Shown: positions 49,856 through 51,550 of the stretch, piece after piece
Layout: each line of letters starts with the position of its first letter
How positions within the stretch are numbered: the stretch's first letter is position 1
Source of the DNA: Candidatus Fermentibacterota bacterium
GTDB taxonomy: Bacteria; Fermentibacterota; Fermentibacteria; Fermentibacterales; JCC-6
Length of the DNA: 64,000 nucleotides
Direction of reading: 5' to 3'
NCBI GenBank assembly: GCA_963845085.1
Contig: CAWJQI010000005.1
Span: forward strand, 576,502-640,501
Position numbers and translations under genes: made by a program
The notes under the pieces: generated by a model
Told to the model about the DNA's origin: nothing
The model's input: only the letters and a program-made list of their open reading frames with translations
The model's database searches: none

Positions 49856-51550
49856 TCAGCGGCTCCCGAGGTAGACAAGCGCCCTTGACGAAACGTTCCC
49901 GTCGAACTCGAGAACGGCGAAGTAGACACCGTTTGGATCAGCCGATGAAGGAGCCCACTGGAGGGGTGCTTCGCCCGACGATTCGGTCCGGTGGACCATC
50001 CTGCCTGCGGCATCGAACACCCTGAGGGATCCGGGGCGCCCGTCGGTTGAAAACACCATGGCCGAGCTGAACGGGTTTGGGGAAAGCATGGTGACTCCGG
50101 CAACCGGGTTGTCGAGGTTGGATATTCCGGTACCGCCCGTGGTGTAGCTGTTGAACCAGGTTGCGGGCGCATGGAGGGGATGGGATTCGGAACGGCCCGA
50201 GTCGTCGGAGGCGGTGATGTAGTACTGGACCGCTGTTCCCGCGGGAAAGCCGGGGATCTGCGCCGAATAGATGTTCGCGCCGAGACCGCTCATGGCGGCC
50301 GTTGTGAAGCTGCCCGAACCGCCTGTGCGGTAGTGAAGGTCGTGACCCGTGAGGGTGTTGTCGGGATGCGTCCTGATGAATGCCTCGATGGTCACGGGGC
50401 CGGTTCCCTGCGACTGGTTCACCGGGGTGTGGTTCACCCACAGGTCATAGCGGTCCATCACGTTCCTTGATCTGCAGTGCAGCGCGTCGGTGTTGGAGAA
50501 CCCCGAGTAGTAAACGGTTTCAACGGTGTAGCCCGGCAGGGCCTGCTGGAAGGCGGTGACAGCAGGGCCGTCGTTTCCGCTGTTCCAGATCGGCATGTAG
50601 TAGATGTCGTTGTGAAGAAGGCCGTTCACATAACCCTCGGTGCCGCCGGAATAGACCCTGTAGACCTGCCACGGGTAACCGTACGGGCAGTCCATCGTGG
50701 AAATAAGGTCGGCTGTTGCTTCAAGGGCGGCATAGTCGGGGTTGGAGGGGGGAACCTGCAGGACCATTATCCGGTCGGGCGAGAGGATCTTGGACCAGCA
50801 GTCGATGTGGTTGATGTAGCTCTGCTGGGGATCGGGAAACGTGCTGTAGGTGGAGACGCCGAGGTAGTCGTACATCTGCTGATCGACCCATGAATCTGGC
50901 TCGTCATTCTCATCGTAGACCAGGTTTGTGGACATGGATTCCCCGAGGCCGCCCGACATGTAGTTGCCGCCGGTGTGGATGATTGAGGAGGAGTAGACGG
51001 GTATTCCCCAGGCTTCGCCGATCACTATCGGTATCAGGTTGTCCTGCGGCCGGTCCGGCCGGTTGTACTCGTAGTTGAATATGCCCTGTGTACCGTCTGC
51101 GAGGGTGATGAACCAGGGACCGTAATCCCTCACCCAGATGGAGTTCGTGGGGGCGATGATGTAGCCCGTGTTGGCCATGTTCACACCGGCGTTCTGAAGG
51201 CCGCTCTGGGCAGCCGCCTGCTGGGTGCTGGAGACAATCACCCAGAGGTAGGAAGTGTTCGAGACATCGACCAGGAAGCTGTAGGGAACTCCGAGAGGCC
51301 ATCTGACCATGATGCCGGTGGAGGTCTCGAACTCGCCCGGGTTACGGACGCCTGCGGGGGGAGGGGTTGTAGGCACGAACCTTCCGCCCGTCATGGGAAG
51401 CTTTGCGAGCTCGGCCTCGGTGAAACCGATGGGCATGAGCTCCTCGGTGCCGCATACCGACATCTCTGCAAACAGGCCGCCGGAAAGGGCAAGCAGGATC
51501 ACTATACAAAGGTGCTTCACTGGTACGGTCCTCCTGTCGGAAGGTTTCAC
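49856..51550 (-). CDS. Porphyromonas-type peptidylarginine deiminase (PPAD, PF04371 family)-like protein with Ig-like domain and T9SS C-terminal domain
   Basis: 564 aa with a signal peptide. Guanidino-modifying-enzyme blocks are SIWVRDYGPWF, YNRPDRPQDN, HTGGNYMSGG, YINHIDCW and NTDALHCRSRNV (catalytic Cys). These are followed by an Ig-like segment (HYRTGGSGSF..VQYYITASDDSGR) and a CTD (SPNPFSS..LRVFDAAGRMV..NGVYFAVL). Confidence 0.8.
   Translation of the reverse strand: MKPSDRRTVPVKHLCIVILLALSGGLFAEMSVCGTEELMPIGFTEAELAKLPMTGGRFVPTTPPPAGVRNPGEFETSTGIMVRWPLGVPYSFLVDVSNTSYLWVIVSSTQQAAAQSGLQNAGVNMANTGYIIAPTNSIWVRDYGPWFITLADGTQGIFNYEYNRPDRPQDNLIPIVIGEAWGIPVYSSSIIHTGGNYMSGGLGESMSTNLVYDENDEPDSWVDQQMYDYLGVSTYSTFPDPQQSYINHIDCWSKILSPDRIMVLQVPPSNPDYAALEATADLISTMDCPYGYPWQVYRVYSGGTEGYVNGLLHNDIYYMPIWNSGNDGPAVTAFQQALPGYTVETVYYSGFSNTDALHCRSRNVMDRYDLWVNHTPVNQSQGTGPVTIEAFIRTHPDNTLTGHDLHYRTGGSGSFTTAAMSGLGANIYSAQIPGFPAGTAVQYYITASDDSGRSESHPLHAPATWFNSYTTGGTGISNLDNPVAGVTMLSPNPFSSAMVFSTDGRPGSLRVFDAAGRMVHRTESSGEAPLQWAPSSADPNGVYFAVLEFDGNVSSRALVYLGSR

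What the first reader, a model, noticed from the sequence alone, without database searches (positions are those of the whole stretch)
49856..51550. Full-architecture PPAD-like peptidylarginine deiminase with a T9SS sorting domain outside Porphyromonas
The domain order is signal peptide, deiminase catalytic domain, Ig-like domain, then T9SS CTD, and the length is 564 aa. Both match the P. gingivalis peptidylarginine deiminase.

As far as I can recall that sequence, whole blocks align:
- PPAGVRNPGEFE..IMVRWPLGVP matches PPAGPVRAIAEYE..VLVRYPFGIP.
- SIWVRDYGPWF matches SYWTRDYTGWF.
- YNRPDRPQDN matches YNRPRPNDDE.
- HTGGNYMSGG matches QTGGNYMTDG.
- YINHIDCWSKILSPDRIMV matches YINHVDCWGKYLAPNKILI.
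- NTDALHCRSRNV matches GTDALHCRTHEV.
- VQYYITASDDSGR matches VEYYISAADNSGR.

PPAD is best known as a Porphyromonas virulence factor that citrullinates C-terminal arginines. A close-looking homologue in a GC-rich environmental-type genome would widen its distribution. The comparison sequence comes from memory and must be verified.
Basis: partly seen in the sequence, partly recalled or inferred. Interest (0 to 1): 0.65.

Follow-up and report, generated by a model that had tools for sequence, protein, structure and literature searches.

The report
Secreted PPAD-type arginine deiminase in Fermentibacteria
This gene from an uncultured Fermentibacteria bacterium encodes a secreted enzyme built like the Porphyromonas gingivalis citrullinating virulence factor PPAD, but it is one ordinary member of a very large, unstudied environmental family that the literature wrongly treats as unique to Porphyromonas.

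Summary
ORF 49856..51550 (-) is a true PPAD homologue. It scores E=8e-80 against PPAD crystal-structure sequences, with 33-35% identity from the signal peptide through the catalytic and Ig-like domains. The AlphaFold model superposes on PPAD at TM 0.95 and 1.4 Å. Every catalytic residue is present, as are the Arg/Arg/Tyr residues that bind the substrate's C-terminal carboxylate. Real agmatine deiminases carry other residues at those positions and separate from this clade with 100% bootstrap. The C-terminal 82 residues pass the T9SS type-A sorting-domain model when scanned alone, and two unrelated proteins in the window share the same tail.

Corrections:
- The real start is probably the GTG at 51520, which has AGGAGG 9 nt upstream, giving 554 aa.
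- The protein is not a close relative of PPAD. It is among the most distant of the 40 family sequences compared.
- The family is huge: at least 594 GTDB species across the FCB superphylum and 506 clusters at 50% identity. Sources label them "agmatine deiminase family protein".

So this is a new member of a known kind.

The most interesting by-product is a full-architecture gingipain-like C25 protease 7 kb away. This pairing recurs, often as directly adjacent genes, in several phyla. It echoes the gingipain-PPAD partnership of P. gingivalis.

The parts
49856..51520 (-). PPAD-type deiminase gene, 554 aa from the probable GTG start at 51520. The longest ORF extends to GTG 51550, giving 564 aa. 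The stop is TGA at 49856-49858. Residue numbers in this report count from 51550.
51530..51535 (-). Shine-Dalgarno AGGAGG, 9 nt upstream of GTG 51520
51467..51520 (-). Sec-type signal peptide (residues 11-28, MKHLCIVILLALSGGLFA). The cleavage site is inferred, not predicted by a tool.
   Evidence: Helix 11-25 in the model. Aligns with the PPAD signal peptide.
51380..51466 (-). Conserved N-terminal segment (residues 29-57, consensus SVCGTEELLPIGFTxEEL). It occupies the position of the PPAD N-terminal pro-region. Its role is unknown.
   Evidence: Nearly invariant S31, G34, E36, E37, L38, P40, G42, T44, E47 and L48 in 58 sequences
50456..51379 (-). Deiminase catalytic domain (residues 58-365). Key residues, with PPAD numbering in brackets: W139 (W127), D142 (D130; 51125-51127), R164 (R152; 51059-51061), R167 (R154; 51050-51052), Y245 (Y233), I246 (I234), H248 (H236; 50807-50809), D250 (D238), N309 (N297), C359 (C351; 50474-50476). 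One extra residue, D166, sits between the two Arg.
50138..50455 (-). Ig-like fold domain (residues 366-471), homologous to the PPAD IgLF and including the VQYYITASDDSGR block
49859..50098 (-). T9SS type-A C-terminal sorting domain (residues 485-564; motifs PNPF, VFDxxGR and GVYF)
49494..49853 (-). 119-aa ORF that starts 2 nt after the deiminase stop codon, so it is probably co-transcribed. It has a hydrophobic N-terminus and no family match. It is conserved next to the deiminase in related Fermentibacterota.
58524..60896 (+). Gingipain-family protease: Propeptide_C25, Peptidase_C25, C25 Ig-like domain and T9SS CTD. It is a candidate functional partner, and its cleavage specificity is unknown.
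38321..40477 (-). BNR/Ycf48-like beta-propeller protein carrying the same T9SS CTD (TIGR04183 33 bits). This is independent evidence that the tail is a shared sorting signal.

Best explanation
The gene encodes a secreted PPAD-type guanidino-group-modifying enzyme of a Candidatus Fermentibacterota bacterium.

Proposed route (inferred): a Sec signal peptide takes the protein to the periplasm. The C-terminal type-A sorting domain then directs it through a type IX secretion system to the cell surface or the medium.

Proposed chemistry (inferred from residue-for-residue and fold identity with PPAD): Asp142 and Asp250 clamp the guanidinium group of an arginine. Cys359 attacks it, with His248 as general base and Asn309 assisting. 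Arg164, Arg167 and Tyr245 hold the free alpha-carboxylate. The substrate is therefore a C-terminal arginine of a peptide, or free L-arginine, and it is converted to citrulline with release of ammonia.

Proposed partner (inferred from gene linkage): the C-terminal arginines are plausibly produced by secreted proteases such as the gingipain-like C25 enzyme encoded 7 kb away.

Proposed physiological role (speculative): peptide processing or ammonia release for an amino-acid-auxotrophic fermenter.
For: Homology:
- PPAD E=7.7e-80, against 1.6e-12 to 2.7e-5 for other pentein structures.
- The agmatine-deiminase equivalog TIGR03380 scores 28.5 bits against a cutoff of 381.8.

Fold:
- Model pLDDT is 87.
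- TM 0.95 and rmsd 1.4 Å to PPAD across both the catalytic and Ig-like domains.

Residues:
- All ten catalytic and specificity positions are identical to PPAD.
- Nine of those ten positions are invariant in 116 family members and Tyr is kept in 103 of 116; the tenth (PPAD I234) is Ile in 115 of 116.
- Agmatine deiminases differ at the carboxylate-binding positions.
- The roles of these residues were defined experimentally in PMC4893104 and PMC4487231.

Phylogeny:
- 100% bootstrap separates this clade from AguA.

Secretion:
- The tail scores 26.9 bits on TIGR04183, and 18 of 18 tails match that model.
- An HMM of the tail finds two unrelated cargo proteins in the same window at E=9e-17 and 1e-13. 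Both pass TIGR04183.
- Fermentibacterota belong to the FCB group, the superphylum to which T9SS is restricted (PMC12421860).

Partner protease:
- The C25 gene sits in a conserved position in 6 other Fermentibacterota loci. C25 genes lie within 8 kb in 12 loci of other phyla, and 5 of these are directly adjacent.
- 8 of 8 tested neighbours have gingipain architecture.

Physiology:
- Hyd24-12 genomes are auxotrophic for most amino acids and encode many extracellular proteases (PMC5030696).
Against: - No enzymatic data exist for any member of the family outside Porphyromonas.
- This subclade has a one-residue insertion (D166) between the two carboxylate-binding arginines. It is present in only 8 of 116 relatives and could shift Arg167.
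- No T9SS machinery gene is present in the 64-kb window, so the host's secretion system was not shown.
- The CTD is marginally sub-threshold in whole-protein scans.
- The signal-peptide cleavage site was judged by eye.
- The C25 protease's S1 specificity could not be read. The RgpB Asp163 position aligns to Gly in a low-confidence region.
- The statistics for C25 linkage rest on an assumed genomic background.
Confidence: 0.75

Rival explanations
1. It is an agmatine deiminase (AguA-like) in polyamine metabolism, as the database label 'agmatine deiminase family protein' suggests.
For: Sources name close relatives 'agmatine deiminase family protein' or 'agmatine deiminase'. Pfam PF04371 covers both kinds of enzyme. 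There are weak hits to TIGR03380 and NF010070.
Against: - TIGR03380 scores 28.5 bits against a cutoff of 381.8.
- 100% bootstrap separates it from four annotated agmatine deiminases.
- It has the Arg/Arg/Tyr carboxylate-binding set, which agmatine deiminases lack. Agmatine has no carboxylate.
- It carries a signal peptide, an Ig-like domain and a T9SS CTD. AgDIs have no domains beyond the propeller (PMC4487231).
- NCBI gives the same label to the P. loveana PPAD orthologue, which is 87% identical to PPAD, so the label carries no information about substrate.
Confidence: 0.03
2. It is an active secreted deiminase of the PPAD clade, but its preferred substrate differs from PPAD's. Candidates are free L-arginine only, arginine on specific cell-surface or cell-wall peptides of the bacterium itself, or internal arginines.
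For: - A one-residue insertion sits between R164 and R167 in this subclade.
- It shares only 34% identity with PPAD.
- The environmental, non-host lifestyle makes host-protein citrullination irrelevant (PMC5030696).
- In some phyla the Tyr233 position is Gly, which shows that the entrance of the pocket varies within the family.
Against: - In this protein and in 103 of 116 relatives, Tyr245 is kept together with both Arg. These are the residues that sterically and electrostatically impose C-terminal specificity in PPAD (PMC4487231, PMC4893104).
- The Michaelis-loop region has the same length as in PPAD.
- Recurrent linkage to endopeptidases fits a peptide C-terminus as substrate.
Confidence: 0.17
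3. The protein is not a T9SS cargo. Either the C-terminal beta-sandwich is just another Ig-like or FlgD-like domain and the enzyme stays periplasmic, or the protein is a catalytically dead binding module.
For: Whole-protein scans put the CTD below the curated cutoffs. No T9SS core gene is in the window. Tails of this kind also hit FlgD_ig models.
Against: - The isolated tail passes TIGR04183, and 18 of 18 tails match it.
- The same tail ends two unrelated secreted proteins in the window.
- The canonical PNPF, DxxGR and GVY motifs are conserved.
- All catalytic residues are invariant across the family, which argues against a dead enzyme.
Confidence: 0.05

Closest known systems
Porphyromonas gingivalis peptidylarginine deiminase (PPAD; PDB 4YT9, 4YTB, 5AK7, 6I0X)
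   Same: - The four-part architecture and nearly the same length (554 against 556 aa): signal peptide, pentein catalytic domain, tightly packed Ig-like domain and T9SS CTD.
- Identical catalytic Cys/His/Asn and two Asp, the Trp/Ile pocket wall, and the Arg/Arg/Tyr carboxylate clamp.
- TM 0.95 and rmsd 1.4 Å.
   Different: - Only 33-35% identity, in a separate, 100%-supported Fermentibacterota clade.
- One extra residue between the two Arg.
- The host is an uncultured anaerobic environmental or digester fermenter, not an oral pathogen.
- No biochemical data exist.
- The N-terminal segment is conserved within the clade but barely similar to the PPAD pro-region.
PPAD-like proteins of uncultured Bacteroidales, Cloacimonadota and other FCB phyla (database label 'agmatine deiminase family protein')
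   Same: The same CD+IgLF core with the same key residues, plus secretion or anchoring tails.
   Different: - Those proteins are closer to PPAD (about 50% identity).
- They are often about 680 aa or much longer, with extra BACON, Big, PKD or dockerin modules.
- Several phyla have Gly at the Tyr233 position.
Bacterial agmatine deiminase AguA (TIGR03380; PDB 2JER, 2EWO, 3HVM)
   Same: The same pentein fold and the same catalytic Cys/His/Asn/Asp/Asp. AgDIs are the nearest outgroup to PPAD (PMC4487231).
   Different: - About 20% identity.
- No signal peptide, Ig-like domain or CTD.
- They lack the two Arg and the Tyr that bind a carboxylate.
- This protein fails the AguA equivalog cutoff by more than 350 bits.
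Vertebrate and cyanobacterial PADI enzymes (PF03068)
   Same: They belong to the same guanidino-modifying superfamily and carry out the same chemistry, peptidyl-Arg to citrulline.
   Different: They form an unrelated family at sequence level, depend on calcium, act on internal arginines and have different accessory domains (PMC4487231; bioRxiv 10.1101/2020.06.13.150037). PF03068 did not match in the Pfam scan.

Membership tests
PPAD-type (Porphyromonas-type) peptidylarginine deiminase | Pentein catalytic domain with the Cys351/His236/Asn297 triad and the guanidinium-binding Asp130/Asp238 | tested here: met
   C359, H248, N309, D142 and D250 are aligned and invariant in 116 relatives. The fold superposes at TM 0.95.
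PPAD-type (Porphyromonas-type) peptidylarginine deiminase | Arg152, Arg154 and Tyr233, which bind the free C-terminal carboxylate and give the enzyme its exo-specificity | tested here: met
   R164, R167 and Y245 are present. AguA outgroups have A/G, W/S/gap and T at these positions. Caveat: a one-residue insertion (D166) lies between the two Arg.
PPAD-type (Porphyromonas-type) peptidylarginine deiminase | An Ig-like fold domain packed against the catalytic domain, which other guanidino-modifying enzymes lack | tested here: met
   The HMMER alignment runs through PPAD residues 361-453. The Foldseek alignment covers all 422 PPAD columns.
PPAD-type (Porphyromonas-type) peptidylarginine deiminase | Groups with PPAD rather than with agmatine deiminases in phylogeny | tested here: met
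   100% bootstrap for the split between PPAD-like sequences and AguA.
PPAD-type (Porphyromonas-type) peptidylarginine deiminase | Citrullinates C-terminal arginine of peptides, not agmatine and not internal Arg | not testable with these tools
   This needs a recombinant enzyme assay.
T9SS type-A cargo protein | N-terminal Sec signal peptide | tested here: inconclusive
   The sequence has a basic n-region followed by a 14-residue hydrophobic stretch. The model shows a helix at residues 11-25, and the region aligns to the PPAD signal peptide. No signal-peptide predictor was available.
T9SS type-A cargo protein | C-terminal sorting domain matching TIGR04183 / PF18962 | tested here: met
   The isolated tail scores 26.9 bits against a cutoff of 23, and 18 of 18 aligned tails match. 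The whole-protein scan gave 22.3 bits, just below cutoff. The same tail is found on two other proteins in the window.
T9SS type-A cargo protein | The host encodes the T9SS machinery (SprA/Sov, PorV, PorU, PorK/L/M/N) | not tested
   None of these genes is found in the 64-kb window, and the rest of the 1.04-Mb contig was not available. The host belongs to the FCB group.
Agmatine deiminase AguA (TIGR03380 equivalog) | Score above the curated equivalog cutoff | tested here: not met
   28.5 bits against a cutoff of 381.8. NF010070 scores 28.2 against 483.
Agmatine deiminase AguA (TIGR03380 equivalog) | A substrate pocket without carboxylate-binding arginines, in a single-domain cytoplasmic enzyme | tested here: not met
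   The pocket has R164, R167 and Y245. The protein also has a signal peptide, an IgLF domain and a CTD.

The most novel reading that the evidence does not exclude
The 'gingipain plus PPAD' pair, regarded as a peculiarity of the periodontal pathogen, may be the host-adapted version of an ancient and widespread extracellular module of FCB-superphylum bacteria. In this module a C25 endopeptidase exposes peptide C-termini and a PPAD-type exo-deiminase citrullinates C-terminal arginines. The two are often encoded side by side and carry the same surface-targeting tail (T9SS CTD, dockerin or PKD). Their role would be peptide and nitrogen scavenging in anoxic environments. Environmental and gut anaerobes would then be a large, unrecognised source of C-terminally citrullinated peptides.
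Probability: 0.35. Interest if true: 0.6.

Novelty: new member of a known kind. Interest (0 to 1): 0.4.

Why it matters
PPAD is studied intensively as the proposed link between periodontitis and rheumatoid arthritis, and papers routinely call it unique to Porphyromonas. This gene and its relatives show that the complete PPAD design is common in uncultured FCB bacteria, including Fermentibacterota, Cloacimonadota, Bacteroidales, Fibrobacterota, Zixibacteria and Ignavibacteria. The design comprises the catalytic domain with the C-terminal-carboxylate clamp, the Ig-like domain and a secretion tail.

Two consequences follow.

- Origin. Goulas et al. proposed that PPAD arose when a single-domain agmatine deiminase fused to the Ig-like domain and the CTD. 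The breadth of the fused form across phyla suggests the fusion is old and that Porphyromonas inherited or acquired the finished product.

- Function. The recurrent genomic pairing with gingipain-like proteases suggests the protease-deiminase partnership has a general physiological role outside pathogenesis. This could be tested with recombinant enzymes.

For this single gene the news value is modest. It is a typical member of a large family that automatic annotation gives an uninformative name.

Tried and rejected
- Agmatine-deiminase reading: rejected by NCBIfam cutoffs, pocket residues and the tree.
- The first bootstrap tree with Biopython's distance calculator timed out. It was redone with numpy Kimura distances. 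No maximum-likelihood program was available, so the internal branching that places PPAD has low support (8-58%) and is not interpreted beyond 'nested among Bacteroidales and Cloacimonadota sequences'.
- Search for T9SS machinery among ten large ORFs of the window (nine of them upstream of 38 kb): only a weak TPR-driven hit to PorW (43.9 bits against a cutoff of 250), rejected as not significant.
- Lipoprotein reading of the conserved 'SVCG' motif: considered and set aside, because Val at position -1 and Met at -3 do not fit a lipobox. No predictor was available.
- Arg-specificity of the neighbouring C25 protease: the catalytic His and Cys align to RgpB. The S1 Asp163 position falls in a poorly aligned stretch, so no conclusion was drawn.
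- The plasmid collection holds only distant AguA-type relatives and no PPAD-type genes.
- The 119-aa downstream ORF has no Pfam or NCBIfam match.
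Full report
1. THE OBSERVATION

ORF 49856..51550 on the minus strand exists and is 564 aa with a GTG start. Pfam finds PAD_porph (PF04371) at 6e-21 over residues 95-361.

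A phmmer search of all PDB sequences returns the five P. gingivalis PPAD entries at E=8e-80 to 1e-77. The alignment runs from query residue 58 to 461 and covers both the catalytic and the Ig-like domain of PPAD. The next hits are the Chlorobium 'putative PAD' 1XKN (1.6e-12) and true agmatine deiminases (2.7e-5 and weaker).

Identity to PPAD is 35% over 398 aligned residues of the crystallised region. Against the full-length protein (P0270, 556 aa) it is 33% over 457 residues, E=6e-89.

One correction concerns the start. A second in-frame GTG at 51520 is preceded by AGGAGG at a 9-nt spacing. The identical database protein P0001 starts there at 554 aa. BLASTP aligns residue 11 with Met1 of PPAD. 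The protein is therefore most likely 554 aa, against 556 for PPAD.

2. SOURCE ORGANISM

The identical protein sits on a 1.04-Mb contig. The nearest relatives (51-81% identity) come from MAGs named Candidatus Fermentibacteraceae, Sabulitectum and Aegiribacteria. These belong to the phylum Fermentibacterota (formerly Hyd24-12), a member of the FCB group. The window has about 60% G+C throughout, with no compositional island at the gene.

3. WHAT THE PROTEIN IS

An AlphaFold2 model built on a 58-sequence alignment has mean pLDDT 87. It shows these parts:
- a signal-peptide helix at residues 11-25;
- a catalytic domain at 58-365;
- a beta-sandwich at 366-471;
- a disordered linker at 477-484;
- a second beta-sandwich at 485-564.

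Foldseek against the PDB puts the seven PPAD entries first, with TM normalised to target of 0.95-0.96 and rmsd 1.4-1.8 Å over 419-422 columns. That covers the whole crystallised CD+IgLF. Agmatine deiminases follow at TM 0.69-0.79 and rmsd 2.6-4.8 Å.

The structure papers define which residues matter. Asp130, His236, Asp238, Asn297 and Cys351 carry out catalysis. Trp127 and Ile234 line the pocket. Arg152 and Arg154, with Tyr233 of the 'Michaelis loop', bind the free C-terminal carboxylate and so impose specificity for C-terminal arginine (PMC4893104, PMC4487231).

The window protein has the same residue at all ten positions: W139, D142, R164, R167, Y245, I246, H248, D250, N309 and C359. In 116 full-length relatives nine of the ten are invariant or nearly so, and Tyr is kept in 103 of 116.

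The only peculiarity is one extra residue (D166) between the two arginines. The window protein reads RPDRP, where PPAD and 108 of 116 relatives read RPRP.

I retrieved four annotated agmatine deiminases from the plasmid collection: E. faecalis aguA next to arcC and a permease, V. breoganii aguA, and family members from B. finegoldii and Azospirillum. I aligned them with PPAD, the window protein and 40 relatives from 15 or more lineages.

The agmatine deiminases share the catalytic residues. At the positions of R152, R154, Y233 and I234 they have A/G, W/S/gap, T and N/D. All 40 PPAD-like sequences have R, R, Y or G, and I.

A neighbour-joining tree on 302 catalytic-domain columns with 200 bootstraps separates the PPAD-like sequences from the agmatine deiminases at 100%. 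It also recovers a Fermentibacterota clade, including the window protein, at 100%.

The NCBIfam aguA equivalog scores 28.5 bits against a cutoff of 381.8. Neither refutation condition is met.

The database label 'agmatine deiminase family protein' is not evidence against this conclusion. NCBI applies the same label to the P. loveana PPAD orthologue, which is 87% identical to PPAD. That orthologue belongs to the lineage shown to be a secreted citrullinating enzyme (Gabarrini 2018, cited in PMC11756583; see also PMC10394638).

5. THE SORTING DOMAIN

In whole-protein scans the tail is just under threshold: TIGR04183 scores 22.3 against 23, and Pfam Por_Secre_tail 13.9 against 27. Scanned alone, the last 82 residues score 26.9 bits. 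All 18 aligned tails match TIGR04183. The alignment shows the usual PNPF, (V/Y)xDxxGR and GVY motifs.

An HMM built from the family's tails finds two further proteins in the window:
- a BNR/Ycf48-like propeller at 38321..40477 (-), E=1e-13;
- a C25 peptidase at 58524..60896 (+), E=9e-17.

Both pass TIGR04183 on their own, at 33 and 25.6 bits. One tail shared by three unrelated secreted proteins is what a sorting signal should look like.

No core T9SS gene lies in the window, so the machinery itself remains unverified. T9SS is described as confined to the FCB superphylum (PMC12421860), to which the host belongs.

6. HOW COMMON THE FAMILY IS

The lineages include Fermentibacterota, Cloacimonadota, Fibrobacteraceae, Krumholzibacteriia, Gemmatimonadota, Ignavibacteria, Bacteroidales, Lentimicrobiaceae, Zixibacteria, Eisenbacteria, Delongbacteria and Marinimicrobia, plus two MAGs labelled Thermoplasmatota.
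- An exhaustive HMMER search of 1.84 billion cluster representatives gives 506 clusters (50% identity) at E<=1e-30. At least 150 of them score 274 bits or more over residues ~36-460. For comparison, this ORF scores 272 bits against PPAD in the PDB search.
- Searching with the PPAD core returns 4,274 proteins at E<=1e-30. After the Porphyromonas proteins (99%, 87% and 54-57% identity) come hundreds of proteins of about 680 aa and about 50% identity from uncultured Bacteroidales and Cloacimonadota.
- In the tree, PPAD nests among those sequences. The window protein is among the most distant members from PPAD at 34%.

The literature repeatedly calls PPAD unique to P. gingivalis or to Porphyromonas (PMC4585897, PMC6147916, PMC6367333). 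I found only one passing remark that pPAD-type genes are more widespread (bioRxiv 10.1101/2020.06.13.150037).

Goulas et al. proposed that PPAD arose from a single-domain agmatine deiminase that fused to an Ig-like domain and a CTD (PMC4487231). The fused form is present across many FCB phyla, which suggests the fusion is old and not specific to Porphyromonas. This is an inference from distribution, not a reconciled phylogeny.

7. CONTEXT AND LIKELY FUNCTION

Neighbouring genes:
- Immediately downstream, 2 nt after the stop codon, lies a 119-aa ORF (49494..49853) with a hydrophobic N-terminus and no family match. It is conserved directly after the deiminase gene in L001 and L002 and within about 1.5 kb in L006, L007 and L010.
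- Other neighbours are housekeeping or redox genes: DUF362 Fe-S protein, alanine racemase, NamZ, EamA transporter, DAO-type and Fe-S/FAD oxidoreductases, EF-G and YifB.

The C25 protease at 58524..60896 is notable. It has a C25 propeptide, a catalytic domain (1.7e-41), the C25 Ig-like domain and a T9SS CTD, which is the full architecture of RgpB-type gingipains. Its best PDB hits are gingipain R and its pro-domain, and the catalytic His and Cys are aligned.

Its homologue sits in the same divergent upstream position in six other Fermentibacterota loci whose deiminases are only 51-55% identical to the window's. That could simply be conserved synteny.

C25 genes also lie within 8 kb of the PPAD-like gene in 12 of 63 loci from other phyla. 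Five of these are directly adjacent (L022, L026, L051, L056, L057), and in four of the five the genes are co-directional with gaps of 13-392 bp. All eight neighbours tested have the gingipain architecture and are not PorU.

The two partners carry matching tails: dockerin with dockerin, CTD with CTD, and PKD with PKD.

I assumed backgrounds of 5-20 C25 genes per 2,000-3,000 genes. Under those, five direct adjacencies have P between 2e-6 and 9e-3. This is suggestive but depends on that assumption.

In P. gingivalis, PPAD acts on C-termini exposed by Arg-gingipains, and gingipain-null mutants lack endogenous citrullination (PMC4487231, PMC4893104). The same division of labour is the most economical reading here. 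The specificity of this C25 enzyme could not be determined.

Hyd24-12 genomes are described as auxotrophic for most amino acids, equipped with many extracellular proteases, and able to assimilate ammonium (PMC5030696). A role in peptide processing or ammonia release is therefore plausible but speculative.

8. VERDICT

The observation and the core interpretation are correct. This is a full-architecture, PPAD-type, T9SS-targeted deiminase outside Porphyromonas, and it is not an agmatine deiminase.

It is not rare and not especially close to PPAD. It is one typical member of a large family that is present in databases, generically named, and never characterised biochemically outside Porphyromonas. 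Novelty: new member of a known kind. Interest is moderate. It rests mainly on the gap between the literature's 'unique to Porphyromonas' and the actual distribution, and on the recurrent pairing with gingipain-like proteases.

Noticed in passing
window 58524-60896 (+): A full-architecture gingipain-like protease (Propeptide_C25, Peptidase_C25, C25 Ig-like domain, T9SS CTD) lies 7 kb from the PPAD-like gene. It sits in the same position in six other Fermentibacterota loci. C25 genes lie within 8 kb of PPAD-like genes in 12 loci of other phyla, and 5 of these are directly adjacent. Its cleavage specificity is unknown.
   Followed up: partly
window 49494-49853 (-): A 119-aa ORF with a hydrophobic N-terminus and no family match starts 2 nt after the deiminase stop codon. 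It is conserved next to the deiminase in L001 and L002 (58-63% identity) and nearby in L006, L007 and L010 (about 41%). It may be an operon partner of unknown role.
   Followed up: partly
window 38321-40477 (-): A BNR/Ycf48-like beta-propeller protein carries a T9SS type-A CTD (TIGR04183 33 bits). It is a third cargo with the same tail in this window.
   Followed up: partly
window 51380-51466 (-), residues 29-57: The segment between the signal peptide and the catalytic domain (consensus SVCGTEELLPIGFTxEEL, with a conserved Cys) is nearly invariant in 58 Fermentibacterota sequences. It occupies the place of PPAD's cleaved N-terminal pro-region but barely resembles it. Its function is unknown.
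   Followed up: no
L056:7989-9851, L057:7992-10532 and their C25 neighbours L056:4131-7934, L057:10741-13638: In Zixibacteria and Ignavibacteria both the PPAD-like protein and the adjacent C25 protease end in type I dockerin domains where a T9SS CTD would otherwise be. This suggests both are mounted on a cohesin scaffold. In L037 both end in PKD domains.
   Followed up: partly
L023 and L037 (MAGs labelled Thermoplasmatota / Thermoplasmatales): Two MAGs labelled as archaeal carry PPAD-like genes that branch among Cloacimonadota sequences, and L037 also has a gingipain-like gene. This is either misbinned bacterial contigs or inter-domain transfer.
   Followed up: no
alignment column of PPAD Tyr233 in L019, L020, L022, L024, L025, L028, L032, L044-L046, L053, L056, L066: Members from Zixibacteria, Ignavibacteria, Eisenbacteria, Krumholzibacteriia, Fibrobacteraceae and Gemmatimonadota have Gly where PPAD has Tyr233. 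[quoted passage not shown] These enzymes may therefore not be restricted to C-terminal arginines.
   Followed up: no
database entries P0386, P0403, P0417 (Porphyromonas loveana / gulae): NCBI's annotation names even the Porphyromonas PPAD orthologues 'agmatine deiminase family protein'. Automatic names therefore hide the whole PPAD-type family.
   Followed up: yes
window 51520 vs 51550 (-): The longest-ORF start (GTG 51550) is probably wrong. AGGAGG lies 9 nt upstream of GTG 51520, and both the database model and the PPAD alignment begin there.
   Followed up: yes
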